A DNA stretch of 64,000 nt, taken from positions 1-64,000 of the forward strand of contig QPGO01000048.1 of NCBI GenBank assembly GCA_008632985.1. Direction: 5' to 3'. Under the pieces are notes generated by a model. The model searched no databases, was not told where the DNA came from, and saw nothing but the letters and a program-made list of their open reading frames with translations. The position numbers were made by a program, and so were the translations under genes. The stretch's first letter is position 1. The number at the start of each line of letters is the position of its first letter. The DNA comes from Psammoneis japonica. Lineage: Eukaryota. Positions 27,101 to 62,717 of the stretch are shown in pieces.

Positions 27101-27212
27101 ACATGATCTGATGATGTGTGGATGGCAATGACTGATTGCAACCTTGTCACCTTGGTCTCTCCTTGCAACTTCATTGCCGCTGAGGTCTGTGTCTTGTTTG
27201 ACCTTGCACTCC
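24140..27212 (+). mobile_element. Degenerate Ty3/Gypsy LTR retrotransposon relic
   Basis: gag knuckle-like CPAH...WKHCIANP (~24820), protease-like MDLG (~25310), RT-like FAGH.DWVQ (~26020), integrase CIHDNGSGF...QANAVCECAHQTVGDIL (26323-26658) in PR-RT-IN order, and degenerate direct repeats at ~24237-24297 and ~27149-27210. Confidence 0.7.
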
Positions 27213-27799
27213 ACATGCAACTGACTGGAGACAGATGGGTGGGCTGGACCAGGGCCAGACAAAGTTGAGGTTTGGGCTGATCACTTCCAAAATGATTGAG
27301 TTTGCAAGAGAGCGATCTTTGCACATGAAACAGTGTCCAACAACTTTTGAAGGCTTCTGCATCATGCAAACAACACACAAAACATCTAAATTTTGCATTG
27401 CCTCAGAAGTCATTTTTTGGTTGGAAAATGACTGCACCTTCTGACCAATGGACTGGCTGTTTTTTCATTGCTTTTGTCATTGATCTTAAGAACAATTGAG
27501 TGCCAGTCTCTTCATGTCTTCAATTGTTCACCATCCTTGGTGGACATGCAAGATTCATCAACAGCAAGCGTGCTGCCATCAAAACTTCAAATCACAGTCA
27601 AGACAGAATCATCAAGAAAAAACCACCCAACCCTTGTTTCAATGCCTGACTCTGCAACTGTGGTGCAACACAACCCCAGATTTCCACTGCATTGTTGAGA
27701 ATTGGAACGGTGTGTTGCACGGTTGTCTGATGTGCTGCTGTGCTGCCTGTCTCACATTGACATTTTCATCTGCAGCAGGAGGAACCTGAGAACCTCCTT

Positions 27800-29300
27800 C
27801 TTGGAGCACTCTCATGCTGCACCCAGAATTGCTGAGAAACTTGCTCAATGCTGTGGCATTCCCTTTTGTTTTCCTGCCATCAAGTTTCCTCCTCAGACAC
27901 TGTTTTTTTTTCCTTTGGTGACTCCAGACAGAGCCACACCTGCCCCCACAATCCCAGCTCTCTCTGAAGTCAAAGTTGTTCACAATCAGGCTCTCAGCTG
28001 CCCTCCACTGGAGCTTGCAGAGGTGGCTGTGTGGTTCATGCCATTTTGCACAAAACTGGGAGCTGGGTCATTTGCATTCTCTTGTGGCTGATTCTCAGAG
28101 CTTTTTTTCAAGAACAAAACCCATCACAGAGACAGGAAAGTTGGCAATGCATGTCTCTTTCTTTGGAGCCAACTTGAGACTGACATCTCCCTGTTTTGTC
28201 CCTTTTCTCATGCCTCAAGATGGTGGGCTCAACTCATGAAACACAGGCTGAGCTGACCCAACAACCATCAATCCTCATCAACTCCAAATCTTCCAAAGAA
28301 ACACCTTTCTTCAGCTCAATTCCCCCAGAAACCAACAGGGCTGCTGGCCTGCTTTTCTCAACATCTTCATTGCAGATTGTTGCTTAGAGGGCAGCAATGG
28401 CAAAGCTTGAGAGGTGGGCCCACATGTCTGGATTTGTTGCCAGCTTGCTTGACATGGGCATCTGGACAGGCTGCAAACAAAATGTCCTCAGGCAGCTCAT
28501 TCTGAAATTTCACATGCTCCCACCTTGCATTTTGCCTCCTTTTCTGCTTGAGGTTGCTTGCGTAGATCACAATGTTGTGGGGGCTGGATGTGGCTGTACA
28601 AGAGATTTTGAGCATGTGTCCCCTCTTGCACCTTCTTTCAGAGCTTCACTTTGGCATTTCCCATGGGGTCAATGAGGTGGTCACATGCCAAGCACACTTT
28701 GGCAAAATGCTTGTTGCCTTCTCCATGTGCTGGGTCACCCAGCATGGCTTTTGCATTCCTGGCTGCTTTTTGCTTTTGTGGTGCCAGCATTGGCAACCAG
28801 CATGGAGGGTGCTAGAACAAGGAGCTTCATTGGGGGGTCACAAGGGCTCATCTTTCAAGAAGATTGTGGCAACTCTTGTGTCAAGAGAGCATCAAGGACA
28901 AGGGTGCACATGGGCTGCTGCTTGCATTTTGTTGAAAAAAATGTGAGGCGCTTCACGCAGATTTGGTTGCATGTGTTCATTCACTGAAAAAAGTGTGAAG
29001 CTGCTTTTTCATGTTTTTGTTCAAAGCTTTCCAAGTGATCAATGCAGATGTTGATGTTGGCTGAATGACATTGTTCAAATGTCCACAATGCTTTTCAAAA
29101 ACAAGTCAGCAATGCACCACAAGATGTGGGCAATGAGAGCCATGTGCTTTCATTTTTTCCTTTGTCAGACCATCTGCCTCACAGTTCCATTTTGACACTG
29201 ACACTGTAATTTACAAGCAGGTGCACACTTGGTCTTTTCCTTGCCAGCACCATGGCTGTTGACAAAGCAAGAAGCAAGAACAAGCAGCAGCCAAGACTCA
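27800..29300 (-). mobile_element. Degenerate Pif1-like SF1 helicase remnant (Helitron-like element)
   Basis: Fragmented motifs: FVNSHGAGK (Walker A-like, ~29250), IVD..MSF (~29080), PPLKLCHCCPL (~28400), KLQWR..ESLIV...W (~28000), VALSGV (VALSRV-like, ~27930). Confidence 0.55.
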
Positions 29301-31419
29301 CAAGAAGAGACACCAAGTCCAAAGAAGGCAAAAGAAGGAAAAGTGGCCTGCATGCCAGAGAAAAAGAGCCCTCCTCTTTGTGTTCAAACAATGGCCCTCA
29401 CAGTGTCACTCAGCCAGCTTGTGTTTGTGGACAAGGAAACAAGATTTGCTTTCTGGGGGCAGCTGAACAAGGGTGTGAGAAACAGACACAGCTGGTGGGT
29501 TGAGAGAAGGATGAAGATCTAAAGGAATTGGTTGGTTGTCCTGACTTGTCTGACCACAAGTGATTGTCTGACCACAATTGATGAGAACAATGCCAAGCCA
29601 CATCTTCAACTTCATCAGTTTGCATGTCACAAGTTGGGCAACAAGCCACAAAAAGACAACAAAAGTGCAAGACAGAGTGCTTTGTTGTTGATGATGAATT
29701 TGTGTTTGACATTGACATGTGCACTTTCTGCTCATTGCACTGGACCACTTGTGAGCAGCAAACAAGTGCCATTGTCAAGTTGACCAGAGAGGTGCATGAT
29801 GAAGATGATGCTGACCCAGCTCTTGTGCATGTGCCACCACACCATGTCTTGAGTTTGCTGGCAACAAACTTCCAAAGGAAGCCCAAGAGCATTGCAGGTG
29901 TCCTTCTCTCTAAGACTGACAAATGCAACAACATTCATCACAATTCTGGCATCTGCTGGCTCATTGTTGCTCTGTGCTTGCAAAGACAGTGAAACACAGC
30001 CATCCACCAGCAAAGCATCCACTCCAATTTGCACTGAAAAGTTCATCAATCAGTGCATTTGGGGAGCCTGCAGTGGCAATGCTGTGCCATGCAGTGTGCC
30101 AGCGGAGAGCAGAGAGTGAGCAAAAATTGCACTGGCAAATCACAAAACTTGCCAACAGGGCAGATGTTTTTCAGGCAGCTGCTGGCTGGCCCACCTGCCT
30201 GGCCTGGCTGGAGATGCCCCCACCCTGGCAGCTTCTCAAACAGCATGGGCAAAGCTGCATGATGACAACACTCAAGTGGACAGCAATTCCTTGAGTGAGT
30301 CTCCCTCTTGTGGCTCATGACTTTGACTTTGTGAGCTGCCTGCACAAGAGAAGTTTGCAAGCTGCACAGTGCAGCTTTTCATTGCCCTCCCTGTGCAGCT
30401 CACAACTTTGTGCACTGCACAAAGGAAGTTCACAAGCTGCGTGATGCAATGTTTCATGATGGAAGCACCCAACCTTGCTTGCTCAAAACAACACAAGAAA
30501 CAGACCATGACAGCAGCAGCAACAGCCAATGCCAGATTGTGCCACCAAACCTTTTCCCACCAAGAACACCAATGCATCACATGCCACAGCATTTTGCTCT
30601 GACAAATGCATCCATGAAAAGAGAGGTGAGACAAGTCAAAAATGGACGAAACTTCTTCTTTGACTTTGCTGTCATTCCTGCTTAAATCTCACAACTTTAA
30701 CAGCTGATGCTGATTTGCCACCAAACTTTTCAGGCCAACAATGCCAACATGTGACATGCTTTGTTGCACTCAGAAAAGTGCACACAAGAAAAGAGAGGTG
30801 AGAAAGAAGTCCAAAAATGGACAAACACTCCTTCCTCATGCTGAGATTTTGCAGACATTCACACTCTTTTTTCACAACTGTTGCATTTCAATTTGTTTGT
30901 TCTCAACAAATTGAAGAGTGCAGACCATTGCACAGATGATTGAGACTCGTTGTGATTTGTGATGCCAAGTGTTGGGCAGAGTTGGTTGGGTTGGCAAGCA
31001 GCCCACAGCAGGGTGAGGCAGGCTGGAGATGATGACGATGAGCAAAAGAGGATCAGGGGGGCAACTCAAGTGTGTGGAGCACTCATCATGGGAATCTGCA
31101 ATCTGCCACTTTTACAAAGGTCCAGGAACAACTGGCTGATGAGGTTGCTGTTGTCCTCTCTAAACATTTGAGTGACTGCCTGGGTTGGCTGACTTTTGAC
31201 TGCAGCGGCACCTGTGCAATTTCTTTCTGCAAAGATGTTCATGTGGCTTGAGATCCCCCACCTCTGAACATTGAGACAGCCGACAAGAGCCAAGGGGTTG
31301 CTCTCTGGCAAGGCATTGATTGATGCTTCTAAGGAAGGGAGTGTTCTTGATTCAGCAGACCCAAAATCTCAGTTGCAACAAGGCTTGGCTTCACTCAAAA
31401 GCCAGTGCATGTGAATTGA

Positions 31420-31662
31420 CTGCTGCTGGCATGACTGCTGCAACCACTGCCATTCTGACTGCTGCCATTGCAACTGCTGCTGTTGCAACTGCTGCCATTT
31501 TGACTGCTGCTGTTGCAACTGCTGCAGTTTGCAACTGGCACTGTTGTGAGCACTGCCATTTTGACTGCGTTGCAATTGCTGCCATTGCAGCCATTGCCAT
31601 TGTGGCAACCACGACAATTGCAACTGCCATTGTTGTGACTGCTGCCATTGTGACTGCCACTG
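31420..31662. repeat. Degenerate minisatellite of (G/T)CAACTGCTGCCATT / TGACTGCTGCCATT-like units
   Basis: Recurrent actgctgccatt / actgctgctgtt units visible in the sequence. Confidence 0.8.
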
Positions 31663-32049
31663 TTTTTAGACTTTTGTTGTTGCATTTGCCATCATTGGTG
31701 GGGCTGCAACTGTGGCTGTTCAGACCCTGCTGCTGTTGAAAAAGCTCAATTGTGCTCTTGCTTTTTGTGTCAATTGGCAATTTTCTCCACATCTTGTTTG
31801 TTCTTGAAATCCCATTTTGCCTGACTGCACCCTTCCTCTGTTTCCAGCACCCTCACACAAATGCTCCTCTTTTGCTTCACTGACAAGCAACTCTGCCATC
31901 CTTGCTTGCCATGACTTGCTTGAACATTTGCTGGTGAGCCTGGGGCATTTTGCTTTCATGCCAACTCTTCTTTGGCATCACACTTGTGGCCCCAAACAGG
32001 GTTCCTTGTCCTTTGATGTGGTCTGATCTTCTTCTGCCAGAGCCCTTTC

Positions 32050-33210
32050 TGCTGCCACCACTGCTGGTTCCACCCATGGCATGCTGGGGTGACAGGTGCT
32101 GAACAGTGAGTTCTTTAGATGTCAGGGGTCCATGGCAAAGGAGGAGGTGGGTCAACAGGGATGTGTGGTGGGAGGGTGGCATGGAGTGCACTGAGTGATG
32201 GAGAGAAGAAAGATGAGCCAAGAGTGTGGACAGACAGTTGGGAGGAAGAGTTGTCAGTGACAGTTGGGTGTCAAAGAAGGAGAGTTTGGCATGCAGAGAG
32301 GTGGTTCAAGAGAATGACACTGAAGTTGAGGCTGAGGATTTGTGAAGCCCAAAGTTGGGGGGTTGCACGGTGTGATGGGAGGTGCCAAAGTGGTCTGGTG
32401 ACACTTGCTTCTGGGTGATGTTGGAGTGGGTGAGGAAGTTGGAGGGGGGTGGGAGCGAGCATTTGAAGGCAGAAAAGGAAGCTTGGGAGTTGGAGAGGGA
32501 AGATGGATCAGCCCAAGGTGGCTTGGGAGGGAGAGGAGGGATGCCGGAGGAGGATGTTGTGGTTTGTGGTTGAGACACCAAAAAAGAAGATGTGGAAGTG
32601 GCGTCCAGGCCAATGCCACCTGGGTGATCAAAGGTGAAAGGGAGGAGGAAAAGTCCTGCTTGATTGACAGTGTCAATGATGTCAGAGCAGCAGGCGGATG
32701 ATGCAGTGCGACCAATGAGCTTGTCCCGTGTGCTGCTGAGGCGAGCCTTGTTTGACAGGTTTTCAGGGGCAGGCAAACCAGGCGCAGGAGGTGGGGGAGC
32801 TGGCAGTGCAGCAACATCAATGGCTGGAAATTGGTGGCTTGATGGGGCTTCCGACGGTGCAGAACCAAGCACAAATTGAGCACCAATGTTGGCGGGGTGT
32901 TCCAAGGGGTGGTCGTCCACTGACAAGAAGACCGGTGGGGTCTGGATGAACTTGTTGTCGAGAGTGGCACAGACCACCAAGGGGGGCCAGTGTTTCAATG
33001 ATGGTGCAGATGATGGTGTCATGGATGTGGTTTGAAAAAGGGCTCTTGTGCATTTTGGGGCAGGTGAAAGCACGGTCTCCGCAAGGGGCGGTCTGGGCAG
33101 GTGTGACCGAGTGGACAGTCGTGTTGGAGCAGATCAGGAGAAACAATGGGGAGCCACAGCTTGAGGAGAAGGAGAAGTGTGAACAGGGTTGGTGGGAGTT
33201 GGTTTGAGGC
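32050..33210 (-). mobile_element. 3' fragment of an RLE-type (CRE-like) non-LTR retrotransposon
   Basis: CCHC-like PCGDRAFTC.K.HK...SNHIHD, followed by HPANIG (RPAD-like), AIDV and LLPFTFDHPGGIG restriction-like endonuclease motifs. Confidence 0.6.
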
Positions 33211-33528
33211 ATGTAGTCGGGAGAGAGAGTAAAGGCATGAGGATCGTTCCAACACTTTGTTATTTTGGCGAGTTGACGACGGCTCCTCTCGCTCGCTTTT
33301 TATTTGTTCTTCTTCCGCACCACTTAGGTACAGCTTACAGACCTCCCAGTCATTGGGAGTGCGCGGCTGCCGCGGCTTTATCGATCGCTTTTGGCTTTTC
33401 CCCCTCCCCGCCCGCCCCGCGGCCGCGGCCGCGCTCATTCATACATCGGTGTTGCCGAACTTCCAACATTTATACAAAACAAACAACACACCACTCCACT
33501 CAGCAAACAGCGACAAGCAACCACAGAG

Positions 33529-39196: not shown

Positions 39197-40945
39197 TTAT
39201 GAGCCAAGTTCCTCGGTGAGAAAATATGAGATTGCTTGATTCCACCAATTTGGTAGGGGCGCTTCAACGTCAATGTCATATTCAGTGATGCACAATCATG
39301 AGGTATGCAGCAAGAATCGCTGCTGCTCACCATCCACCGGCAAAGCGGCAACATGGGCCAACGAGTCTCTGTCGTCGCTTGTACTTGAATAGTCGGTGTC
39401 AAAGAGAATGGGGAATCCCAATCCTTCGGCACAGTGAACTCACACTTGATGTTTCCTTCCAGCACGAGTTTCGATTCGAAGACACACAGGGCAGAATCAC
39501 TGCATTCTTCAACTGCAGCAAAGGTAGACTGGGGTGTGCCGACTTCCCGTGCACTGGAATGTCAATCTCCCCATGAAAAGGGATTTCCTTTGCACTGGCA
39601 GCTGCCACAGTCAAGCAGCTCTTTTTTGCTTTGCAAAAAAAAAGAATTCAGCAACAAGCTTTGCATTCATTTCATCAGTTTTTGCAAGTGCAGTGCAGCC
39701 AGGTGTCCTGCGATCAATTCTGTGAACAAGGCCCCTTCTTTCATGATTGAGTGCTGAAAGCGGGACATTGAAATGATCCAGGAAATCCTCCAAAGATGCA
39801 TCAAAGCATGTCCTGGATTGCTCTCACCCTTTCTTTAAACTGGAAGATCTTTGCAAAGAAAGAATTCAGCAACAAGCTTTGCATGCATTTCATCGGTTTT
39901 GGCAAGTGCAGTGCAGCCAGATGTCCTGCGATCAATTCTGTGAACAATGCCTCTTTCTTCATGATTGAGTGTTGAAAGCAGGACATTGAAATGATCCAGG
40001 GCATCCTCCAAAGATGCGTCAAAGCATGTCCTGGATTGCTCGCACCCTTTCTTTGAACTGGAAGATTGCATTCTTCCAGCCGAAGTCTTGCATCTCCTGT
40101 TGAAGCATGCCACACCAGGCAGTTTGATGCAACCACTGCACTCCCAGATCAATGCAAAAATTGAAAATCAAGGCCACACAAGTCTCAAAGCAGTTCTTCC
40201 ACATCCTTGACTTGTGCTGCTCAGCCCTTGCATTGAGTTGCAGCCCTTGCATGATGGCATTTTGACCCTCCTTTCTTCTTGATCAGTTTTCCATCATTTT
40301 CCAGCTTTCTCCAAAACTGGGTTGGCTTGTGACACAGTGAGGGAGCCATCAGATGCAAGGCACAAAGCTGAGCACACCAGCAACAAAACACCATGACATC
40401 AGGGCATGTTTCAATGGATTTGGACATGTCCCAAGCCAGCAGATGAGCTCCCCGGATGCAGCATCGTCAGCCAGACAACCAGACCCTGTGAAAGCACGCA
40501 AAATTCCAGACAGCTCAGGCTTGTTGTTTTCTGCTGCATCAAGTGATGTGCATTGACCAGGTCTTTGGGTGAAAGTTCAAGTGGCAATGTGTTGCAACAA
40601 ATCCAGAACAGCGTCAGTCTCACCAGCCATGGTGTGAACTTTCTTGGCATGGTCAGATGGGTCATTCATCAAAACAAGCAAACACAAGGGCTTGCTGCTG
40701 CTGCTGCTGCTGCCACTGTGCAAAGCACTTTCACAACCCAAAGGCTGGTCCATGGTGCACTCAGAGATGTCTGCATGATGACAAACCAACTGCTTTGAAA
40801 TGTCTTCCTTTCCAGGCACATTTGTGCTGCCTCTGACACCATGCCCCAATGCTCAACAGCTGACAATGTTCAAGCATCAACATTGAAAAATGGGGCCAGA
40901 GCAGCTGACAACCATTGACATCATCTCTGTCTCAATCTTCATCAT
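39197..40945 (-). pseudogene. RluA/RluD-family pseudouridine synthase pseudogene with internal tandem duplication
   Basis: KLPGVACF (motif I), GIVHRIDRRTSGC (motif II, twice), ETRAGRKHQV*VHCAEGLGFPILFD (motif III), RFLLHTS*L...VEAPLP.WW; in-frame stops and frameshifts; 5' end approximate. Confidence 0.85.
39641..40066. repeat. ~218-bp-period tandem duplication
   Basis: aaagaattcagcaacaagctttgca...aactggaagat occurs at 39641-39848 and again at 39859-40066. Confidence 0.95.
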
Positions 40946-41039
40946 GGGATTCATTTGTTGAGAGACCATGCCCGATGAGCGCTCACAGGGGGGGAAAGCA
41001 GGTGCCTTCTTCATTTGTTTTCATGTCCAGCTGTGCCAG

Positions 41040-41998
41040 CTTTTCATGCCATCATGTTGTGGTGCTGAGTGTTGCTTTCAGTGTTTGATTGTGTGGTGTT
41101 TGGTGTGTGGCACACAGGGCCAGAATTGTGCCCCCATGCAGGCCAACTTAGCAAGGACTTGCACATTTCAGAGCAGCAGAACAAAATCCAAAACTTGCTG
41201 CTCTCACTGTGCCTGTGCTCATGGCAGCCTGAGCCACAATTGGCAGCAACCTCTGTCATTCAGTTGGCAGCAACCTTCATCAATTGGTGGCCACAGGCTC
41301 AGGCACTCAACCTCCCTCTCAGCTTTCAGTGACACCCCAATCTCAACAATCTCAACGAAGGGAACCTCCATCAGCTGGCAGTGACATCTCTGTCAACTGG
41401 CAGCAACCTTCATCAATTGGTGCAAACAGCACCATTTGTGCCACACAATGGGTGACAACCATCAACATCACCTCTGCCTCAACCTCAATGTCCCAAAACT
41501 CATTTGCTCAAGGACCGCGCCTCTGCCAACCTCTTGGCACATCCCTCTCTCATGCAGCTGCCAGGGGTCTCTGGTTTGTGTGTTCTCAGGTGAAGTGGCC
41601 TTTCCAACTTGCTTCTATCCACCCCCTCTTTGTGCTGTCACTTTTGTCATGCTGAGTGTTGCTTTGAGTGTTTGATTGTGTGGTGGGGTCCAGTGCATGT
41701 GTGGTGTGCATCAAGCAGGGCTGTTGTCATGCCCACATGGACCAATTCAATGAGGACTTGCACATTTCAAAAAACACAAAATCCAAAACACCATTCTCAC
41801 CATGCCTGCACTCTTGGCAGCCTGAGTCAATTGGCAGCAGTGACCTCCATGAATTGGAGCGATGCAAGTGACACCAGCACTTGTGCCATGCAACAGGCAA
41901 CAACTTCCTCCTCAATCTCAATCCTAAAACTTGTCTGCCAAGGGACTATGCCTGCCGAGCTCTTGGCTTCCATCTCTCTAGCAGCTGCCAGGGCTCTC
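41040..41998. repeat. Degenerate nested direct repeats, TpA/CpG-depleted
   Basis: gctgagtgttgcttt.agtgtttgattgtgtggtg at ~41064 and ~41651; tggcagcaaccttcatcaattggtg at ~41265 and ~41398; cagctgccaggg at ~41555 and ~41982. Confidence 0.8.
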
Positions 41999-54380: not shown

Positions 54381-54678
54381 GGTCTGAAGCGGCGGCTGAG
54401 CGAGAAGCTCATCATCTATCTTCTCTCGTTGCTCGTCGTGGCAATCATCCGCACCGCTTCCACCATGCTTGTTTGGCGTGCGCTCGCGCGCGCGAGCGCG
54501 GAATCTGTCGACGCGAAAGCACGGCCGACCATCCGACATCGGACGTTTTCAAGTTTTGGTGGTGATGGCATGACGCATGACCATCACAATGATGAGCGAT
54601 AGCGCTGAGATTACGTCGTCTTTCTGAAACTCATCATTCGTTTGCGCTTATTGTACTGTCAGCCTTGTCATTATCAAC

Positions 54679-55533
54679 ATGAGCATGCTCATCAACTCGT
54701 TCCTTGTGCAAGGCGCGGGCGCAGCGCTGGCCAGTGGACTGAACACCGTTTCATCCCTTCCACTCGACGCTCTTGTTCTCATGTCTCTCGGAGCGGACTT
54801 TCCCACTTTAATTAACACTGTCGACAAAGCCAACATTGACTGTCCTGTCCATCTTACCGAGACGTATGGAATCATTGGGCATGATGATGATTTGGGACGC
54901 AACGTTGAATTGATGGAAAAAGGGCGAGGCCAAGAGCATGGATTTCAGGGCGGCAGTGGCGGGCAAGGATGTCTTGCACCAGCATTTTCACAAGGAGCGG
55001 TTGCTGGACACATGGATTCTGCGGTCCCTCAAGACGCATCCTCTTTGATGGTGATTGCCGACACATCTGGTGCTTTTGCAGAAGTGTCGGGAAAATTGCC
55101 TCTGCACTGTGGTGGGATCACAAAGGAGGCTTGGTTTCTAAACAATGGCGAACTCGAGAAAGTCCCTTGCTTTTGGGTGGCCAGCCAATCGCGCGATTGT
55201 CCAATCGGTGCACCAGCGTTCAAGGGCGATGCCAGTGAGGCGACAGAAGCCCCAATGTCAAAGCTCCCTTCAGGATGGCAACCCAGTGGACAGGTCGGTC
55301 TGTTTCCATGTCATGCACGCGGTGTGAATCATTGCGGTGCCGAGAATGTAGAAGTGGATGCCATTGCATCACTTCTTTCAGAGAAGGGTTCTGCTCCTCA
55401 CATTTTTGGCATGTTTGCTCACGGCGAACTCGGTCCGTCTAGCTTCAGTGGGTTCATGAACGAGAAGAACGACATTGAGTGCGAGAAACACAGCATGACG
55501 AGCATTTTGTCAATCCACACGTCAGTGGGTGAG
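54679..55533 (+). CDS. FIST-C domain protein, interrupted 3 codons before its stop by the Copia insertion and hypermutated
   Basis: LFPC.ARG...E...IFGMFAHGELGP (FIST-C). The native end GCG TCC AGC TGA lies after the 3' TSD at 62118-62129. Confidence 0.75.
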
Positions 55534-55880
55534 TGTGACAATGTTCATGTTTGCATGTTTTTACAACAACATCGGACCTCCACGATTCAAATCAGAGATC
55601 CAAGATTCGAACCCCGTGTGCGATGCTCAGTCTCGAATCCCGCGGAAGCCGAGTCACGAATGCGATGTTTGTTCCCAGCTTCGCGCTTGTTCAACTTCGC
55701 GTTTCCTTTAGATGGCAGCTGCATCTGCTCATAAAAACTGCTCACAATCTTTCCAATGCACTGATTGTCACCTCTCAACTTTTGGTGCAACAAAGTTGCT
55801 GATTGATTGTTGTGTCGCAATCACAGCTTTTAATCACTGAAAGTGCAGACGAATCTTAGAATTCCGGCTACTTTCCCACA
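55534..55880 (+). repeat. 5' LTR
   Basis: tgtgacaat...ctttcccaca; 338/347 identical to the 3' LTR by manual alignment. Confidence 0.97.
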
Positions 55881-55954
55881 CGCTTCCTCTGCGAAACCCA
55901 CAAGTTAAGTCAATCGATCTTAAGCTCTCGATTCTACTTCACTCTGCTGTCACC

Positions 55955-57462
55955 ATGGTCACGCAGACACGAACCGCGGCTGCTCTAGCTGCCTCTGTTG
56001 CAGCTCCCGCTGCTGCACCCGCTGCAGCTCCCACCACTGCTGCTGCTCCGGCAACAGCACCTGCTCCTGCAGCCGCTCCAGTTGCTCCTGCACCTCCCCC
56101 AGTCGTTCCTCCCGGTGCACCTCCAGGAGGAAGTGGCGGAGGAGGTGGAGGAGGAGGCGGAGGTGGAGTCCCACCAGGTGGAGTCCCGCCAGGTGGACCA
56201 CCATTGGCACCTGTGCCACCACTGCCGATCTTCGCGTTGACTCCAGGTCAACACCGTCCCAACAACTTCATCGACTGCGGCACATCGCAAGGCCTCAAGC
56301 TTTGGAACGCCGCTGCTGCACCGCTGCCACACGAGTTCAACGGCGATTCAGAAGGTCTCAAACGGTTTTGTGAGACACTCAGTCAACGAGCTGCCGAGGC
56401 AGGATGGAAAACAGGGGCAAGAGACATGCTTGCCATTCCCGACGCGAATGGAACTCCACGAGATCTCATCTCCGAGTGCGGGCTGCTCACTCTGCAGGAT
56501 GTGAGAACCCACGCGAACACCTTCGCGAATCCACCTGCGCGACAAGCACAGAACAATGTGCAGATGGCCGAGGCGATCTCTCAATCCCTTGCGGAGGAAG
56601 CAAGAGACAAGACATTGGCTGAGATGGATTCCCACACGATCAATGGAAATCAAATCGGCACACTGTTCTTCAAGCTGCTTGCGCAAAAGGCCATCGTTGA
56701 CACACGCTCTGCCACCAACTGCTTCCGCGAGAACTTGTCAAGCCTGGACACGTGCATGGCGGCTGTTGGCTCGGACATCGAAGAGTTCAACAAGTGCGCC
56801 AAGCTCAACGTTGACGGACTCCAAGCTAGAGGAGAGCAGTGCGACGACCTTGTCATGAACCCATTCAAAGGATGCACCGCAGCTGCTGACGAAGCATTCG
56901 TCAAGCACATCATGTCACACAAGGACAGGTGCGACGACGGTGAGGAATTCACGCCGACACAAATCATGACGTTGGCACTGAACAAATGTGTTTGACCTCA
57001 AGCGCGAGAAGAAGTGGGGAGCACTGTCACCGGCTGAAGAGCAAATCGTCGCGCTTGCAGCCAAGGTAGACTCCATTTGAGGATCAGAACCTTCAGCCAT
57101 CTAAAGCTTTGAAGGCCAAGGCTGGTTCAATCAAGGAAAGAAGCACACGGTCAAGGAAGACCAAGACCACTCCACGTCAGAGACAGAAAGCGGACGAAGC
57201 CTGGAAGAAAGTCCCGCCCAAGGAGGACGCTCCCAAGAAGACAGTGAACGGTCATCAGTGCTGTCACAAGCGCGTCAACAATCGCGACTGTCACTGGTGC
57301 CCACATCACACTGCTTGGGTCATGCACTTGCCTGATGATCCGGGCAACCAAGGCTGTAGACTCCGCAAGCAACAGTCTGCTCCATCCACAGACACGTCGG
57401 ACAAGAAAGTCTCCTTCGCAAGTGCTGTCTCTGCCATCCCAAACGAAGTGGATCAAGAGTGA
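55955..57462 (+). pseudogene. Copia gag (frameshifted near 56990 and 57078; no Tyr in the two main ORFs)
   Basis: FALTP...IDCGT..GLKLW, PFKGC..AAD..FVKHI, WKKVPP, WCPHH..W..H motifs of CoDi-type gag. Confidence 0.85.
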
Positions 57463-60400
57463 CTGCTCTGCAGGTTCACTCTGACACTGCTGCTGTCCTT
57501 GCAGACAGCCGTCACTGTGTCAGTGCTCCTGATGGCGGTCGCTGGCGTCATGAAATGTGCAGCATCGATCTGGATCATGCTGCTGTTCATGATGCCATCC
57601 CTTCCTTCAGAAAAGTGCAAGCGCCTGTCACATGCCGCAATGACGCTGGGTGAGTGGGTCATCTCACATGTCCTGGCTGAACTGGGCACAAGACAAGTTA
57701 AGACTTGCCAGCGACGGCCAACGACGAGGTGCTGCGCACGGCATCATGCGTCGACGAGGCCAGGTCACCGCTCCAGAGTGGCCACCAAGAAGGCTCACTG
57801 TGTCATTGCACGACACAAGACGGTTAGAGCGTGCAACTCAGCCACACCACACCGTCCCGAGCGAACGGAGCCCACTTGCGATTCGGACTCATTCGCAATC
57901 GGCGTCGACTCGCATTCTTCCTGCACCATGTCCAACAACGAGGCACACTTCATTGGTCCTCTTCGCAAATCCAACAAAGTGGTGCTCGGTGTCAAGGGCT
58001 GCTTGCGTGCTGAGGGAGAAGGAACAGTGCAGTGGGCAATTGAGGACGACATGGGACGAGTGCACAGCATTAAAATTCGAGACGCACCCCATGTGCCGGA
58101 CTTGCCTCATTGTCTTCTCTGCCCGCAGCAATGGAGCCAACAAGCTAATGACCACACGCCAGAGCCTCACGGAACCGTGTCTTGGACCAGGGACGACGGA
58201 CCATTGCTGATGTGGGACCAGCGCAAGTGCCATCGCCTGATTCCATTGTCCGCCAACTCTAACGTCGCCAAGATGCGCTCCGCACCCGGTTCCAACAAAT
58301 GCCGGACCTTTGCAGCCGCTGTCGAAGAACAAACCGACATCGAAACTATCGAGCACGTGGCCTGTCAAGCTCACATCATGCCACCAGACGACGAGAGCAT
58401 TGCGAATGATGACGAGGCTGCAATTGATGCAGACGTCTTCAGAAGTCCATCCGAGACACGTCCTTCTGAGACGCAAGACGCACGCAACACTGCTGATGAG
58501 GATGCTCCTGTCTCATTTGAGCCAACAGACGGAGCAAGTCGTTCAGACTCAGACGAGGAAAACCTGAGGGATTTCACGACACCGGAGGTGCAGCAGGACT
58601 TGCCGGAACCCATCAACATCATACCAAATGATGACGCCCTTGCTGCCACAGATGACCAGGGTGAACTATTGCGTTGGCATTGCCGCCTGGGCCACATGTC
58701 ATTCAAAATGATAAAGCCATTGGCCGCCCTAGGCATTCTACCGAAACGCCTTACAAAGGTGCACAACCCAAAATGTGCCGGCTGCCCATACGGTGCCATG
58801 ACGAAACGACCATGGCGATCCAAGTCCAAGCGGAACCGACGAATCCACTTGGCAACTTCGCCTGGAGAAGCCGTATCCGTCGACCAGCTCGAGAGTCCTA
58901 CTCCTGGATTGATCCCACAGCTCAAAGGGAGACCTACGAAACAAAGGTATCGAGCAGCGACAATTTTTGTTGATCATTTCAGCGGATTGGGGTGCATGTA
59001 TTTGCAGAAAGGACTTACCTCAGCCGAGACGCTCGAAGCCAAGCACGCTTTCGAGGCATTCGCACGCCGGATGCACGTCCGTATTCAACACTACCACGCC
59101 GACAATGGAAGATTTGCTGACAATGCTTTCATACAAGACGTCAAGAAGCAACAGCAAACAACATCCTATTGTGGGGTCAACGCCCACTTCCAAAACGGCA
59201 TCGCGGAGAAAAGAATGAGGGACCTCCAAGAGCAATCTCGGAAGCAACTCCTGCATGCAAAAGTGAGATGGCCAACGGCTATTGAGTTGAACTTATGGCC
59301 AAGCGCTCTCAGGAACTCAAACGAGATCAAGAATCACTTACCAAATCACGAGGACGGCTCTTCTCCGCTGGAACGTTTCTCGTCCGTCAAGGTCCAGCCT
59401 AATCTCAAACAACACCATACCTTCGGCTGTCCCGTCTACGCCTTGCACAACCGGTTGCAGGGAGGAGGTAGGCTGCCTAAGTGGGACCCAAGGGCAAGGT
59501 TAGGAATCAATTTGGGACCATCAACAAGACACGCAGGTTCAGTTACCTTGGTTCTGAATTTGCAGACCGGACTCGTATCGCCGCAATTTCACGTACAATT
59601 TGACGACTTCTTTGAGACTGTTCGTCCATCTGCTGGGAATCCTCCTACATTCTCACAATGGCAAGGCATTACAGGTTTCAGACAACTCAAGACAAGGAGC
59701 ACTTTCAACATCTTTGGGAAATCAAGTGACGTACCGGTTGAGGGATTAGTCCCTACCACAACGGAACCACCTGAGCCGAATTCGGATATCCCGTCTCAGC
59801 TGCTGCATCCTACTGATACGTCTACCACTGATGACTCATTTGATAATGCCCAACCGGATGATGAAATGCTATACACGCCTCCAGATGATTCTGACGCACC
59901 ATCTGAGCCACAGCGCACTATGGGTCAACCCAGTACCAGTAGGTCCGGCCGACAACGACGCCCGACCGAAAGGATGCGCGAGAGCCAACTACAACGGGCT
60001 CAAGGCATTGTCTCCTACAATGCAGAGGCAGAGGCATATTATGATGCGATGCACGAGGATGATTACAAACTGCAGGACGATATGGACTCACCTATCTCTT
60101 TTCTGGCGAGCTCGGACCCCGACACCATGTACTTTGATCAGGCCATGCGTGAACCTGACAGAGACGAATTTATCAGGGCCTGTGTTAAGGAGGTCAATGA
60201 TCATATTGAAAGGAAACATTGGATACTCATTCCAAGAGAGGACGTACCTGACGACGTCGATGTTCTCCCTTCGGTATGGTCTATGAAGCGCAAAAGAGAC
60301 ATTAAGACCCAAGCCGTCTACAAATGGAAGTCCCGACTTAATGTGCACGGCGGAAAGCAAGAGTATGCTGTCAACTACTTCCAGACCTACTCTGCCGTGG

Positions 60401-61722
60401 TCTTCTGGTTCACTATCCGGCTCCTACTGATCATTGCCATTCTTAAGAAGTGGCATACACGCCAAATCGACTTCGTTCTGGCGTATCCGCATGCCGATAT
60501 CGAATATGATATGTACATGGAGTTGCCTGCAGGAATTGAAACAAAATATGGCAATGGTAAGACTCATGTTCTGAAGTTGCTCAAGAACTTATATGGACAG
60601 AAGCAAGCAGGGAGAGTATGGCAAGAACACTTACGTGATGGATTGTTAAGGATTGGTTTCGTACAATCGGCGGTTGATGAGTGCCTGTATTTTCGTGGCA
60701 ATGTCATTTTCATTCATTATGTCGATGACGGTATCTTTGCATCCCCTGACAAGTCTGCTATTGACAAGGCGATACAGGATATCAGAGATGAGAATTTTGA
60801 TATTGATGATCAAGGCACTCTGGACGACTATCTCGGTGTCAACGTCGAGACACTACCAGACGGCAGAATGAAACTTACCCAACCTCACCTTATCAATCAG
60901 ATACTGGAGATGGCCAATATTCCAAAGAGACTACCAGATAAGTCTACTCCTGCTCCTTCCTCCAAGATCCTCCACAGGCATATGAGTGAGCCTGCTTTCC
61001 AAGGGAGCTTTCATTACCGATCCATCATCGGCAAGCTCAATTTTCTGGAGAAGAGCACTCGACCGGATATCGCTTACGCGGTGCACCAAGTCGCACGCTT
61101 TTCTTCCGATCCCAAGGTTTCTCACGGTGAAGCCGTACTATGGCTCTGTAAGTACCTAAGGTCAACCAGAACTGAAGGTATTATACTACAGCCCTCAACG
61201 GACAAGTCCCTTGAAGTTCACGCCGACGCGGACTTTGTGGGCAATTGGAATAAGCTGACTGCACCCGATGACGTCGGCACTTCCAAATCTCGAACTGGGT
61301 TTGTCATCACCTATGCAGGGTGTCCGATTGTCTGGACGTCCAAGCTACAGACTCAGATCGCGCTCAGCACTACTGAAGCTGAATTTATCGCTCTTTCGGA
61401 AAGTCTTCGAAGCGCCATCCCAATTATGAACCTCATTCAAGAATTTATGGATCACGGTCATAATGTCCCTTCCAAGACACCAGTCGTACATTGTAAGGCT
61501 TTTGAAGACAATTCTGGAGCATTGGAGATCGCGAGATTGCCTAAGATGCGTCCTCGGACAAAACACTTCAACCTCACTCTCCACCATTTTAAAGACCATC
61601 TTCGCAAAGGTCTCATATCAATCCTACCAATTGATACGGCGGATCAGATTGCAGACATTTTCACCAAACCTCTACCACAGAATCTCTTCATTAAACACAG
61701 GAAATCGCTCCTTAAGTGGTAA
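57463..61722 (+). CDS. Copia pol: protease, GAG-pre-integrase, integrase, RT, RNase H
   Basis: IGVDS, WHCRLGH, VSVDQ...HADNG...NGIAE, QIDF..AY, LYGQKQAGR.W, YVDD, DADF, STTEAE, EDN, ADIFTK. Confidence 0.95.
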   Translation: MLCRFTLTLLLSLQTAVTVSVLLMAVAGVMKCAASIWIMLLFMMPSLPSEKCKRLSHAAMTLGEWVISHVLAELGTRQVKTCQRRPTTRCCARHHASTRPGHRSRVATKKAHCVIARHKTVRACNSATPHRPERTEPTCDSDSFAIGVDSHSSCTMSNNEAHFIGPLRKSNKVVLGVKGCLRAEGEGTVQWAIEDDMGRVHSIKIRDAPHVPDLPHCLLCPQQWSQQANDHTPEPHGTVSWTRDDGPLLMWDQRKCHRLIPLSANSNVAKMRSAPGSNKCRTFAAAVEEQTDIETIEHVACQAHIMPPDDESIANDDEAAIDADVFRSPSETRPSETQDARNTADEDAPVSFEPTDGASRSDSDEENLRDFTTPEVQQDLPEPINIIPNDDALAATDDQGELLRWHCRLGHMSFKMIKPLAALGILPKRLTKVHNPKCAGCPYGAMTKRPWRSKSKRNRRIHLATSPGEAVSVDQLESPTPGLIPQLKGRPTKQRYRAATIFVDHFSGLGCMYLQKGLTSAETLEAKHAFEAFARRMHVRIQHYHADNGRFADNAFIQDVKKQQQTTSYCGVNAHFQNGIAEKRMRDLQEQSRKQLLHAKVRWPTAIELNLWPSALRNSNEIKNHLPNHEDGSSPLERFSSVKVQPNLKQHHTFGCPVYALHNRLQGGGRLPKWDPRARLGINLGPSTRHAGSVTLVLNLQTGLVSPQFHVQFDDFFETVRPSAGNPPTFSQWQGITGFRQLKTRSTFNIFGKSSDVPVEGLVPTTTEPPEPNSDIPSQLLHPTDTSTTDDSFDNAQPDDEMLYTPPDDSDAPSEPQRTMGQPSTSRSGRQRRPTERMRESQLQRAQGIVSYNAEAEAYYDAMHEDDYKLQDDMDSPISFLASSDPDTMYFDQAMREPDRDEFIRACVKEVNDHIERKHWILIPREDVPDDVDVLPSVWSMKRKRDIKTQAVYKWKSRLNVHGGKQEYAVNYFQTYSAVVFWFTIRLLLIIAILKKWHTRQIDFVLAYPHADIEYDMYMELPAGIETKYGNGKTHVLKLLKNLYGQKQAGRVWQEHLRDGLLRIGFVQSAVDECLYFRGNVIFIHYVDDGIFASPDKSAIDKAIQDIRDENFDIDDQGTLDDYLGVNVETLPDGRMKLTQPHLINQILEMANIPKRLPDKSTPAPSSKILHRHMSEPAFQGSFHYRSIIGKLNFLEKSTRPDIAYAVHQVARFSSDPKVSHGEAVLWLCKYLRSTRTEGIILQPSTDKSLEVHADADFVGNWNKLTAPDDVGTSKSRTGFVITYAGCPIVWTSKLQTQIALSTTEAEFIALSESLRSAIPIMNLIQEFMDHGHNVPSKTPVVHCKAFEDNSGALEIARLPKMRPRTKHFNLTLHHFKDHLRKGLISILPIDTADQIADIFTKPLPQNLFIKHRKSLLKW

Positions 61723-61765
61723 GACGTTTTCGAGTCATCATTCCACCCGACATTGTTGAAGGGAG

Positions 61766-62112
61766 TGTGACAATATTCATGTTTGCATGTTTTTACAACA
61801 ACATCGGACCTCCACGATTCAAATCAGAGATCCAAGATTCGAACCCCGTGTGCGATGCTCAGTCTCGAATCCCGCGGAAGCCGAGTCACGAATGCGATGT
61901 TTGTTCCTAGCTTCGCGCTTGTTTAACTTCGCGTTTCCTTTAGATGGCAGCTGCATCTGCTCATAAAAACTGCTCATAATCTTTCTAACGCACTGATTAT
62001 CACCTCTCAACTTTTGGTGCAATAAAGTTACTGATTGATTGTTGTGTCGCAATCACAGCTTTTAATCACTGAAAGTGCAGACGAATCTTAGAATTCCGGC
62101 TACTTTCCCACA
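61766..62112 (+). repeat. 3' LTR
   Basis: Direct repeat of 55534-55880, followed by TSD gtgag. Confidence 0.97.
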
Positions 62113-62717
62113 GTGAGGCGTCCAGCTGAGTCGCTTGAGTTGAGTCCATTATTTAGGCTACATTGCAACACATTGTGTCTTTTACGGGACACTTTTTGTC
62201 GCAACTGTATCAAGCCTAACAGTTGCATTTAAAACAAGACATTTACAAATCACAGAGATTACAGCACCTGCATCTTCCTTGAAAACTTTTCAGGCTTATG
62301 GCAGTTGATGAATAGAGACTCTAACACTGGAGCTCTCGCGGTCGGTCGTACTGTACGTATTGTACGTCGGGCGGGCGGTCCAGTCCCGATTCCCTACAGC
62401 ACGTGATTCAAAACGAGATAGTGCCATTCTGACGTTCTACGCGCTTCTCAGTATGTCTCCATGTACCTTATTTCAGTACGAACAGTTTGTCGTATGTAGG
62501 GTTTGTACTCAATCCTACGGCCTGACGGGACCCGGCGTTGGAAGCACAAAGTCAGAAGCGAAGCACGCACACACAGAACAAAAAGCACGGCAACAAAGAC
62601 GAAGTTGTTGCCTGTGTCATTTGCGTCGTCGGAGTTCCCTCGTCCTCTGCACCGACCGCAGAAGCAACCGTACCGTATCAAGTTCAAGGACATCAGAGAC
62701 TCAGCGACTGGCATTGA

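What the first reader, a model, noticed from the sequence alone, without database searches (positions are those of the whole stretch)
55955..61722. Mutation gradient along one element: gag/protease Tyr-free, RT/RNase H untouched
The two main gag ORFs and the first ~430 aa of pol contain no Tyr. Cys or His stand where this family normally has Tyr (IDCGT, ISECG, LDTCM, FKGC, VKHI, WHCRLGH), which is what TAY->TGY/CAY produces. Leu->Pro (CTA->CCA: NPFKG, CAGCPYG) and Ile->Met (ATA->ATG: KRMRDL) fit the same rule. TA reappears from ~58.6 kb and is normal by ~59.3 kb, with YVDD intact. CpG is still abundant throughout, so TpA loss comes before and is independent of CpG decay. The focus is on the promoter/5' LTR end, suggesting nucleation and spreading from a chromatin or small-RNA mark.
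Basis: partly seen in the sequence, partly recalled or inferred. Interest (0 to 1): 0.9.

Follow-up and report, generated by a model that had tools for sequence, protein, structure and literature searches.

The report
TpA-erasing hypermutation tract on a retrotransposon
A young copia-type jumping gene in what looks like a diatom genome, plus the end of the host gene it landed in, has had about four fifths of its TA steps rewritten to TG or CA over a 3.8-kb stretch, a kind of targeted mutation no literature search here found described.

Summary
The element is a Ty1/copia LTR retrotransposon: LTRs 55534-55880 and 61766-62112, 5-bp target duplication GTGAG.

- **Tyr loss:** gag and the first 430 residues of pol have no Tyr. 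Relatives have Tyr where this copy has Cys or His, at 9 of 10 gag columns and 6 of 9 pol columns.
- **Extent:** the TpA-poor tract is not confined to the element. It runs about 54870-58620, with 23 TA against 117 expected, and has a partly converted shoulder to about 59.4 kb.
- **Host gene hit:** the tract covers about 0.66 kb of a conserved single-copy host gene, whose conserved Tyr residues are also Cys or His.
- **Timing and direction:** the two LTRs differ at 9 sites, all in one direction: 8 TA to TG/CA and 1 CG to TG, all in the 5' LTR. The change therefore came after integration and was fast.
- **Other features:** CpG is largely kept. Surviving TA sites are mostly YTAR. TG and CA outcomes are interspersed.
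- **Reads:** contigs from public runs hold an allele without the insertion, with TA at the one flank site shown.

Best reading (0.66): an in-place, TpA-specific A:T-to-G:C hypermutation domain that leaks into flanking DNA. It resembles RIP in logic but has the opposite chemistry.

Main rival (0.15): long-read consensus errors at an unknown TpA base modification.

The "nucleation at the promoter" idea is untested, and the 5' LTR is less converted than gag.

The parts
54679..55533 (+). Host gene, a conserved roughly 286-aa protein of unknown function. The element inserted 3 codons before its stop. Its last 0.66 kb lies inside the TpA-poor tract.
   Evidence: 80 homologues, including one named record from Seminavis robusta at 53% identity; without the element the frame would read 3 more codons from 62118 and then stop; 1 Tyr against a median of 8 (minimum 7) in 52 orthologues. 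The nine Tyr columns read H,Y,H,H,F,C,C,C,F.
54870..58620 (.). Core TpA-depleted (hypermutated) tract. It crosses the host/element junction.
   Evidence: 23 TA against 117 expected. TG o/e is 1.49 and CA 1.44, against 1.10 and 1.13 in the background. CpG o/e is 0.81.
58621..59400 (.). Shoulder with partial conversion.
   Evidence: TA/(TA+TG+CA) is 0.11-0.17 here, against 0.2-0.35 further 3'. Conversions still occur at C395 (58681), C499 (58993) and M573 (59215).
55529..55533 (+). 5' copy of the target-site duplication GTGAG.
55534..55880 (+). 5' LTR (347 nt, TG...CA). 8 of the 14 TA sites seen in the 3' LTR are TG or CA here.
55955..56995 (+). gag ORF 1. It has no Tyr.
   Evidence: ten Tyr columns of relatives read C,C,F,H,C,C,C,H,C,C.
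56996..57462 (+). Rest of gag, including the zinc-knuckle region. It is read in two further frames, so this copy's gag is frameshifted. It has no Tyr.
   Evidence: three-frame translation. table 4: all contigs laid at 57077-57079 lack one letter that the window has.
57499..61722 (+). pol ORF (protease, integrase, RT, RNase H). No Tyr in residues 1-430; 28 Tyr after that.
   Evidence: Pol_BBD, gag_pre-integrs, SH3_retrovirus and RVT_2. Tyr columns.
61758..61765 (+). Polypurine tract GAAGGGAG, directly before the 3' LTR.
   Evidence: read from the alignment.
61766..62112 (+). 3' LTR. It keeps all 14 TA sites.
62113..62117 (+). 3' copy of the target-site duplication GTGAG. Read contigs stop matching the window exactly at this point.
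   Evidence: table 8, record 7.
23961..33214 (.). Separate tract that lacks both TpA and CpG. It is a possible end state of the same process plus CpG decay.
   Evidence: TA o/e 0.00-0.06, CG 0.00-0.24, TG and CA 1.5-2.2; no Pfam family in six frames.
39525..41925 (.). Second tract that lacks both TpA and CpG.

Best explanation
After this copia element inserted into the 3' end of a host gene, a roughly 3.8-kb domain underwent rapid, context-specific A:T-to-G:C transition hypermutation at TpA dinucleotides, so that TA became TG or CA. The domain covers the last 0.66 kb of the host gene, the 5' LTR, gag and the protease/early integrase part of pol.

**Shown.**
- The changes are real differences from relatives and from family contigs.
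- They arose after integration.
- They hit both strands, interspersed.
- They prefer TA sites that are not YTAR.
- They leave CpG mostly intact.
- By the genetic code they cannot create a stop codon, so the open frames say nothing about selection.

**Inferred.**
- This is a host process aimed at newly inserted or silenced DNA. It is regional rather than homology-wide, because the equally repeated 3' half is untouched.
- It leaks into neighbouring single-copy DNA as fungal RIP does.
- It stops on the left near the host gene's promoter.
- Over longer times CpG decay follows, giving the TA-free and CG-free tracts seen at 24-33 kb and 39.5-42 kb.

**Enzymology is unknown.** The candidates, all inferred, are:
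- deamination of adenine in T-A-Y, the context of the tRNA adenosine deaminase substrate (recalled);
- oxidation of thymine in TpA to a base that mispairs with G;
- repeated error-prone repair synthesis.
For: **Tract.** It holds 23 TA against 117 expected, P 2.5e-26, and none of 130 background windows falls below o/e 0.48. The gain in TG+CA o/e (+0.70) equals the loss in TA (0.49) plus CG (0.19).

**Polarity from outgroups.**
- gag: 9 of 10 Tyr columns are C or H, none is Y.
- pol residues below 431: 6 of 9 are C or H, none is Y. From 431 on, 23 of 32 are Y and 2 are C or H.
- Host gene: 6 of 9 are C or H, including two columns that are 100% Tyr in 52 orthologues.

**After integration.** The 347-nt LTRs differ at 9 sites: 8 are TA in the 3' LTR and TG or CA in the 5' LTR, and 1 is CG against TG. 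There are no differences of any other kind and none in the opposite direction.

**Not a family trait.**
- X2 contigs differ from the window by C>T 43 and G>A 50, against A>G 8 and T>C 11.
- 11 of the 21 listed differences supported by X2 are window TG or CA against read TA.

**Flank.**
- X2 contigs show 15+17 differences in 54604-55528 but none in 54001-54406 or 62620-63000. An X1 contig shows none in 54001-54635 (table 8).
- At 55491 both runs read T, giving TA, where the window has C.
- The contigs stop matching at the element's ends and run on. This fits an allele without the insertion: X2 depth 1.85 in bin 62101-62400 equals 5.4 x 103/300.

**Context.** 31 of 46 surviving TA sites in the three tracts are YTAR, against 331 of 1952 elsewhere (Fisher P 1e-13).

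**Direction rule.** At asymmetric sites 18 of 24 fit RTA>RCA / TAY>TGY (P 0.023).

**Strands.** 26 TG and 17 CA outcomes form 18 runs against 21.6+-3.1 expected, so there is no strand coordination.

**Same signature elsewhere.** 2 of 40 aligned homologues (P0004 from ENA, P0029 from NCBI) have C or H at 20 Tyr columns across the whole pol, with few CpG-type changes. The other 38 have 0-2.
Against: - The only accurate-read data found do not appear to hold this allele. X1 holds 0.67 of the sampled words. My estimate, which is an inference, is 0.67-0.78 if the tract's converted words are absent and about 1.0 if they are present.
- At 55491 the one X1 contig laid there reads T, not the window's C.
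- So no independent read supports the converted sequence. Either the runs come from another genotype or haplotype, or the tract is an assembly artefact.
- Only 40 of 591 differences were listed, so the claim that most flank differences are TA-type rests on one listed flank site plus the orthologue comparison.
- 0 of 78 related metagenome loci show the signature. The lowest 1-kb TA o/e is 0.16, and there is at most 1 Cys at Tyr positions.
- The direction rule failed a second test: Tyr>His does not depend on the preceding base.
- No enzyme is known, to my recall, that makes A:T-to-G:C changes in genomic DNA as a defence. None was looked for here because no genome is held.
Confidence: 0.66

Rival explanations
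1. Assembly artefact that reports a base modification. Thymine or adenine at TpA is chemically modified across this silenced domain. A long-read basecaller or consensus then reads the modified base as the other pyrimidine or purine, so TA appears as CA on one strand's reads and TG on the other's. The underlying DNA still has TA.
For: - Modification-induced transition errors that survive polishing in nanopore assemblies are in print for bacteria. They are strand-specific (PMC11610603, sections 6 and 8 read; bioRxiv 10.64898/2026.01.14.699587, abstract read).
- X1 holds only 0.67 of the words and reads TA at 55491.
- A path-based consensus would pick CA or TG and never CG, which matches the data: 1 Arg and 1 Tyr among 28 Tyr columns.
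- Dependence on neighbouring bases could equally be a property of the signal.
- The window has one extra T in a T-run at about 57077-57079 compared with every contig laid there (table 4).
Against: - The two other tracts have lost about 95% of CpG as well. From recall, routine nanopore assemblies of CpG-methylated genomes do not show this, so at least that half of the pattern is probably real mutation with the same products.
- One X1 contig of another LTR copy (depth 63.4) has TG at the same ancestral TA where this 5' LTR has CA, plus CG>TG and CG>CA. Transition-mutated copies therefore exist in accurate-read contigs.
- Among X1 differences, transitions outnumber transversions 511 to 59.
- The unique flank would normally have been corrected by short-read polishing.
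- The flanks agree with X1 at 0 of 635 differences, and at 1 substitution plus 1 non-homopolymer indel in 888. That does not look like a raw, error-rich assembly.
- It also needs an unknown modification present at about four fifths of the TA sites.
Confidence: 0.15
2. Chimera. The element is a recombinant, gene-conversion product or misassembly that joins an old TA-poor copy (5' part) to a young copy (3' part).
For: - The main drop in conversion is fairly abrupt: no TA in 58347-58622, then 7 TA in 170 nt.
- The family is multi-copy. Summed contig depth over the element is 18-45 times that of the flanks, although the tool warns this is not a copy number.
Against: - The tract continues 660 nt into single-copy host DNA.
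- Both ends share the target duplication GTGAG, and read contigs join the two flanks exactly there.
- The LTRs show no divergence other than the 9 one-directional changes. An old 5' half would also carry ordinary substitutions.
- Conversions continue at lower density for 0.8 kb past the step.
Confidence: 0.04
3. RNA-level A-to-I hyperediting of the element's transcript, for example in double-stranded RNA formed with the antisense transcripts. The edits would then be fixed by reverse transcription before integration.
For: - The change is A-to-G with a 5' T, as for RNA adenosine deaminases (recalled).
- Contigs of run X2 look like spliced antisense RNA of the family.
Against: - Both LTRs of a new copy are templated from the same RNA ends and are identical at integration. 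Yet 8 TA sites differ between them.
- Host DNA outside the element is converted.
- Both strands are hit in an interspersed way.
Confidence: 0.02
4. Native composition or selection. The 5' half of this family avoids TA, for example to avoid stop codons or UA-directed RNA cleavage.
For: TpA is under-represented across the window in general (o/e 0.61).
Against: - Relatives and family contigs have Tyr/TA at these places.
- The 3' LTR keeps the TA sites that the 5' LTR lacks.
- Invariant Tyr residues of a host protein are replaced.
- No 3.75-kb background window falls below o/e 0.48.
Confidence: 0.01

Closest known systems
Repeat-induced point mutation (RIP) of filamentous fungi, including its leakage into adjacent single-copy DNA (mechanism and leakage recalled; RIPCAL paper PMC2621366 and the Leptosphaeria maculans genome paper PMC3105345 seen only as search listings with the start of the abstract)
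   Same: Both are in-place, DNA-level, dinucleotide-specific transition hypermutation of a transposon copy after integration. Both are far faster than background mutation. Both spill hundreds of bases into neighbouring unique sequence and damage a host gene. Both leave dinucleotide-skewed relics.
   Different: - The chemistry is opposite. RIP makes C:G to T:A, mostly CpA to TpA, so it raises TpA and lowers GC. Here A:T goes to G:C at TpA, which removes TpA and raises GC.
- RIP creates stop codons. This process cannot.
- RIP covers the whole duplicated length. Here the equally repeated 3' half and 3' LTR are untouched.
- The host looks like a diatom, not a fungus. Diatom DNMT4 enzymes are related to fungal RID but their function is unknown (PMC9998398, passages read).
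Methylation-driven CpG decay of silenced transposons (5-methylcytosine deamination; recalled)
   Same: The products are the same (TG and CA). It also acts on silenced repeats. It is probably the second component in the tracts at 24-33 kb and 39.5-42 kb.
   Different: The target here is TpA, not CpG. CpG o/e is still 0.81 in the tract, and only 1 of the 9 LTR differences is at a CpG.
A:T-phase somatic hypermutation of immunoglobulin genes (polymerase eta errors at WA motifs; recalled)
   Same: Both give a regional cluster of A-to-G changes at TA/AA-type motifs on both strands, over a few kilobases.
   Different: That process gives a few per cent of mutated sites with mixed outcomes. It does not convert about 80% of one dinucleotide. 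It depends on AID, which was not assessed here, and it occurs in vertebrate lymphocytes.
ADAR or TAD-type A-to-I hyperediting of retroelement RNA (recalled; the APOBEC DNA-editing counterpart PMC4866542 seen only as a search listing)
   Same: Both give clustered A-to-G changes with a 5' T/U preference in a retroelement.
   Different: The event here follows integration, differs between the two LTRs and includes host DNA. RNA editing before reverse transcription cannot produce any of these.
Modification-induced substitution errors in nanopore assemblies (PMC11610603, sections 6 and 8 read; bioRxiv 10.64898/2026.01.14.699587, abstract read)
   Same: Both show motif-bound transitions that appear as fixed differences in an assembly.
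   Different: Those errors are reported for bacterial methylation motifs, at scattered sites. They are not reported for about four fifths of one dinucleotide over kilobases in a eukaryote.

Membership tests
Ty1/copia LTR retrotransposon | Two direct LTRs ending TG...CA, flanked by a 5-bp target-site duplication | tested here: met
   LTRs are 347 nt, at 55534-55880 and 61766-62112, with 338 of 347 positions identical. GTGAG lies on both sides.
Ty1/copia LTR retrotransposon | Copia-type reverse transcriptase, with the integrase placed before it | tested here: met
   Pfam RVT_2 at residues 915-1142 (E 1e-36). gag_pre-integrs at 382-432 and the integrase SH3-like domain at 633-703 lie upstream of it. 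The rve core itself did not reach E 0.001.
Ty1/copia LTR retrotransposon | Polypurine tract before the 3' LTR | tested here: met
   GAAGGGAG at 61758-61765.
Ty1/copia LTR retrotransposon | Primer-binding site complementary to a tRNA after the 5' LTR | not tested
   No tRNA comparison was made.
Fungal RIP | C:G to T:A transitions, mainly CpA to TpA, so TpA rises | tested here: not met
   The direction is the reverse. TA falls to o/e 0.12 and TG/CA rise. Outgroups show TAY to TGY/CAY.
Fungal RIP | Mutation covers the duplicated sequence as recognised by homology | tested here: not met
   The 3' half and the 3' LTR belong to the same multi-copy family but keep their TA sites.
Fungal RIP | Leakage into adjacent single-copy DNA | tested here: met
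   About 660 nt of the host gene is converted. 6 of 9 conserved Tyr are His or Cys.
Fungal RIP | Dependence on a RID/DNMT4-type enzyme and a premeiotic stage | not testable with these tools
   No genome is held. Diatom DNMT4 function is unknown according to PMC9998398.
RNA A-to-I hyperediting fixed by retrotransposition | Changes arise before integration, so both LTRs carry the same state and host DNA is spared | tested here: not met
   8 TA sites differ between the LTRs, and the flank is converted.
CpG methylation decay | Loss of CpG to TpG/CpA | tested here: not met
   CpG o/e is 0.81 in the tract against 0.90 in the element's 3' part. 1 of the 9 LTR differences is at a CpG.
Modification-induced long-read consensus error | Miscalls confined to reads of one strand and absent from amplified DNA or accurate short reads of the same sample | tested here: inconclusive
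   Only contigs of public runs could be laid. They lack support for the window's base at 55491 but appear to come from an allele without the insertion. No raw reads or signal were available.

The most novel reading that the evidence does not exclude
This organism, probably a diatom, has a genome-defence mutator that works the opposite way to RIP. Under this reading:
- A DNA-level activity converts TpA to TpG/CpA, by adenine deamination in T-A-Y or by thymine oxidation, across kilobase domains laid over fresh transposon insertions.
- It acts within a time too short for a single ordinary substitution to appear in the LTRs.
- It spills into host genes.
- It removes Tyr, Ile(ATA) and Leu(YTA) codons, but it can never create a stop codon, so the scrambled frames stay open.
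- CpG decay follows later, giving TA-free and CG-free relics.

If the tract instead turns out to be a basecalling effect, the novelty moves to an unknown TpA base modification that marks silenced DNA before CpG methylation does.
Probability: 0.5. Interest if true: 0.9.

Novelty: new variant of a known kind. Interest (0 to 1): 0.8.

Why it matters
Targeted hypermutation of transposons in place is known, to my recall, only as cytosine deamination: RIP in fungi, and APOBEC on cDNA. A process that erases TpA through A:T-to-G:C changes would matter in several ways.

- It would be a second chemistry for genome defence, in a major group of marine algae.
- It would explain TA-free, TG/CA-rich tracts and long open but scrambled reading frames that can mislead gene callers. 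Two such "proteins" already sit in public databases.
- It would show that a fresh insertion can destroy a neighbouring gene by mutational spill-over as well as by disruption.
- It gives a dated order of events, TpA first and CpG later, that can be tested across a genome.
- It points to a natural DNA-level A-to-G or T-to-C activity, which would interest the study of DNA-modifying enzymes.

Tried and rejected
**Whole genome.** None is held, so no genome-wide survey or enzyme search was possible.

**Literature.** Nine of the ten searches sent ran; the tenth was rejected for a term format.
- Eight covered the biology. The terms combined diatom, retrotransposon, hypermutation, TpA, TpG, CpA, RIP, RIP-like, A-to-G, T-to-C, 5-hydroxymethyluracil, DNMT4 and RID.
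- None returned a description of TpA-directed hypermutation of transposons. These searches cover only the held open-access library.
- PMC7884421 (Rhizoctonia) held the terms but concerns ordinary transition bias (passages read).

**Earlier findings of this scan**. There was nothing on this genome or on a eukaryotic case. The listed phage CA/TG notes do not bear on this.

**Other searches.**
- tblastn of 8 homologues found no second copia pol in the window.
- Pfam on six read-through frames of 23950-33251 found no family.
- Of 78 related metagenome loci, none has a TA-free tract or excess Cys/His at Tyr positions.
- The listing of cluster members gave no names or accessions for five homologues.
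- The protein-atlas search on a host protein gave only a BMT5-like family with mixed eukaryotic taxa.

**Sequencing runs.**
- No RNA holder is listed.
- X3 laid nothing.
The full list of flank differences could not be seen.

**Ideas tested and dropped.**
- A spared "TA island" at 55831-55986. 5 of its 7 TA sites are simply YTAR, the slow context.
- Strand-coordinated, kataegis-like clusters (runs test).
- An antisense ORF in the spliced antisense contig (none).
- Dependence of Tyr>His on a preceding purine (not seen).


Full report
**What is there.** Positions 55534-62112 are a complete Ty1/copia LTR retrotransposon.
- It has two 347-nt LTRs, TG...CA, at 55534-55880 and 61766-62112.
- A 5-bp target duplication GTGAG lies on both sides, and a polypurine tract precedes the 3' LTR.
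- gag is followed by pol with Pol_BBD, gag_pre-integrs, the integrase SH3-like domain and RVT_2.
- gag is read in three frames in this copy. All read contigs laid at 57077-57079 lack one letter that the window has (table 4).
- The best protein relatives are 60% identical and come from environmental assemblies.
- The window is gene-dense with long uninterrupted ORFs.
- The gene next to the element has a named relative in the diatom Seminavis robusta at 53% identity. I therefore take the host to be a diatom. This is an inference.

- gag has 0 Tyr in 346 residues, and the first Tyr of pol is residue 431.
- TpA o/e is 0.00-0.17 in 500-nt windows from 54750 to 58000 and returns to 0.65-0.81 from 59500, while CpG stays at 0.6-1.0.
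- Tract 54870-58620 holds 23 TA against 117 expected at the window's background ratio (P 2.5e-26). None of 130 background windows of the same length falls below 0.48.
- The rise of TG and CA (+0.70 in o/e) equals the loss of TA (0.49) plus a small loss of CG (0.19).

**The direction is TA to TG/CA.**
- In related gag sequences from 78 metagenome loci, ten columns are mostly Tyr. This copy has C,C,F,H,C,C,C,H,C,C there.
- In an alignment with 40 pol homologues, the nine Tyr columns before residue 431 read H,H,R,M,C,C,F,C,C. From 431 on, 23 of 32 are Tyr.

**It happened after integration, and quickly.** LTRs are identical when an element inserts.
- Here they differ at 9 of 347 positions. 8 are TA in the 3' LTR and TG or CA in the 5' LTR, and 1 is CG against TG.
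- There is no other kind of difference and none in the opposite direction.
- So roughly 94 conversions accumulated in 3.75 kb while no ordinary substitution appeared in 694 nt of LTR.

**It is not confined to the element.** The tract begins about 660 nt upstream of the 5' LTR, inside a host gene (54679-55533).
- The element inserted three codons before that gene's stop.
- The protein is conserved. 52 orthologues have a median of 8 Tyr (minimum 7), and this allele has 1.
- Its nine Tyr columns read H,Y,H,H,F,C,C,C,F, including two columns that are 100% Tyr.

**Read contigs of two public runs from one sample add to this.**
- They match the window without a difference at 54001-54635 (X1) and at 54001-54406 and 62620-63000 (X2). 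X2 contigs carry 15 and 17 differences in 54604-55097 and 55088-55528.
- At 55491, the only flank difference printed, both runs read T, giving TA, where the window has C.
- The contigs stop matching exactly at the element's two ends and run on (194 and 103 more letters). The X2 depth in the first bin after the element equals what those 103 letters would give.
- I read this as an allele without the insertion. This is an inference from table 8, because the joint itself was not among the printed rows.

**Family contigs.**
- X2 contigs over the element differ from the window mainly by C>T (43) and G>A (50), against A>G 8 and T>C 11.
- 11 of the 21 printed differences supported by X2 are window TG or CA against read TA.
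- So other family members have TA where this copy does not.

**Anatomy of the tract.**
- *Left edge.* It lies between 54650 and 54870, about 0-200 nt inside the host gene and just past the 139-nt gap shared with a divergent neighbour gene.
- *Right edge.* There is a step at about 58620, with no TA in 58347-58622 and then 7 in 170 nt. A shoulder to about 59.4 kb follows, where conversions still occur (C395, C499, M573) but many TA sites survive.
- *5' LTR.* It is the least converted part, at 8 of 14 sites. The cluster of surviving TA at 55831-55986 is mostly TTAA, TTAG or CTAG.
- *Context.* Over the three TA-poor tracts of the window, 31 of 46 surviving TA sites are YTAR, against 17% elsewhere (P 1e-13). 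ATAT, GTAT, ATAC and ATAG are gone.
- *Polarised sites.* Of 43 sites whose ancestral state is known, 26 became TG and 17 CA, interspersed (18 runs against 21.6+-3.1). At sites with asymmetric neighbours, 18 of 24 fit "the T with a 5' purine changes", that is RTA>RCA or equivalently TAY>TGY (P 0.023).
- *Failed second test.* Tyr>His does not depend on the preceding base. The direction rule is therefore only moderately supported.
- *No new stops.* A T-to-C or A-to-G change cannot turn a sense codon into TAA, TAG or TGA. The open frames are therefore no sign of selection.

**Wider context.**
- Two other tracts in the window (23961-33214 and 39525-41925) have lost both TpA and CpG (o/e 0.0-0.24, mostly below 0.1), and TG and CA stand at about 1.9. 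That is the value expected if every TA and CG had become TG or CA. They hold no recognisable protein domain.
- Two of 40 aligned homologues, from different public sources, carry Cys or His at 20 Tyr columns along the whole pol with few CpG-type changes. The other 38 have 0-2.
- None of 78 related metagenome loci shows the signature.

**Explanation.** The best reading is an in-place, DNA-level, TpA-specific A:T-to-G:C hypermutation laid over a fresh insertion as a domain of a few kilobases. It leaks into host DNA, with CpG decay as a later and separate step.
- It resembles fungal RIP in logic and in leakage. It fails RIP's defining tests on chemistry and on coverage of the whole repeat.
- RNA editing before integration is excluded by the LTR differences and by the flank.
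- A recombinant of old and young copies is excluded by the flank, the clean LTRs and the shoulder.
- The enzyme is unknown. Adenine deamination in T-A-Y, thymine oxidation, and error-prone repair are all inferences.

**Main caveat.** The accurate-read contigs found do not seem to contain this allele.
- X1 holds 0.67 of the sampled words, and its only contig laid at 55491 reads TA.
- Transition errors caused by base modification, which persist in nanopore assemblies, are documented for bacteria (PMC11610603, sections 6 and 8; bioRxiv 10.64898/2026.01.14.699587, abstract).

Arguments against the artefact reading:
- About 95% of CpG is lost in the older tracts, which such errors do not explain.
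- One X1 contig of another LTR copy carries TG at a TA site where this LTR has CA.
- X1 shows 511 transitions against 59 transversions.
- The flanks agree cleanly with the reads.

I give the artefact reading 0.15. If it were true, it would imply an unknown TpA modification that marks silenced DNA.

**Literature.** Eight full-text searches on the biology found no description of such a process. One paper notes that diatom DNMT4 enzymes are related to the fungal RIP enzyme RID and that their function is unknown (PMC9998398, passages read).

**Verdict.** It is a new variant of transposon-directed hypermutation, of high interest, pending read-level confirmation.

Noticed in passing
window 23961-33214 and 39525-41925: Two tracts have lost almost all TpA (o/e 0.00-0.10) and almost all CpG (0.00-0.24). 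TG and CA stand at about 1.9, the value expected if every TA and CG had become TG or CA. There is no ORF over 255 aa and no Pfam family in six read-through frames (checked for the first tract only).
   Followed up: partly
window 56323-60631, minus strand (contigs of run X2): X2 contigs lack at least 14 short segments (70-114 nt). One 1333-nt contig of depth 512 lacks five of them. 12 of the 14 have GT/GC...AG ends on the strand antisense to pol, which looks like a many-intron spliced antisense RNA of the family. It has no ORF. Inside the TA-poor tract the six donor sites read GCAAG. Outside it they read GTAAG, GTACG or GTGAG, so the hypermutation changed GT donors to GC. The kind of run X2 is not on record.
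   Followed up: partly
window 55529-55533 / 62113-62117: Contigs of runs X1 and X2 stop matching exactly at the two ends of the element and run on. This fits a second allele without the insertion. That allele also differs from the window by one inserted A behind 62216, which is not in a homopolymer.
   Followed up: partly
window 56989-56994 and 57077-57079: This copy's gag is split over three frames. All contigs laid at 57077-57079 lack one letter of a T-run that the window has, and some lack one letter at 56989 or 56994. This could be a private indel, a defective master copy or a consensus error.
   Followed up: partly
proteins P0004 (ENA, contig 65999 nt) and P0029 (NCBI, contig 47284 nt): These are public 'proteins' of 1481 and 919 aa. 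They are copia pol frames with Cys or His at 20 Tyr columns along their whole length, plus I>T and V>A changes. They are probably fully TA-converted copies whose frames stayed open. Their DNA could not be fetched.
   Followed up: partly
loci L043, L045, L047, L049: These related copia elements from metagenomes have moderate joint depletion of TpA (o/e 0.30-0.40) and CpG (0.24-0.40), with TG/CA at 1.33-1.59. They show no excess Cys at Tyr positions.
   Followed up: no
window 56125-56168: The Gly/Pro/Ala-rich start of gag holds a GGN repeat. Read contigs show loose ends and 'goes back' joints there, which suggests repeat-length variation among copies.
   Followed up: no
window 54540-54678: A 139-nt gap separates the converted host gene (+) from a divergent neighbour gene (53598-54539, -). 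The neighbour shows no difference from the reads. The conversion tract ends just inside the host gene, as if the shared promoter region were a barrier.
   Followed up: no
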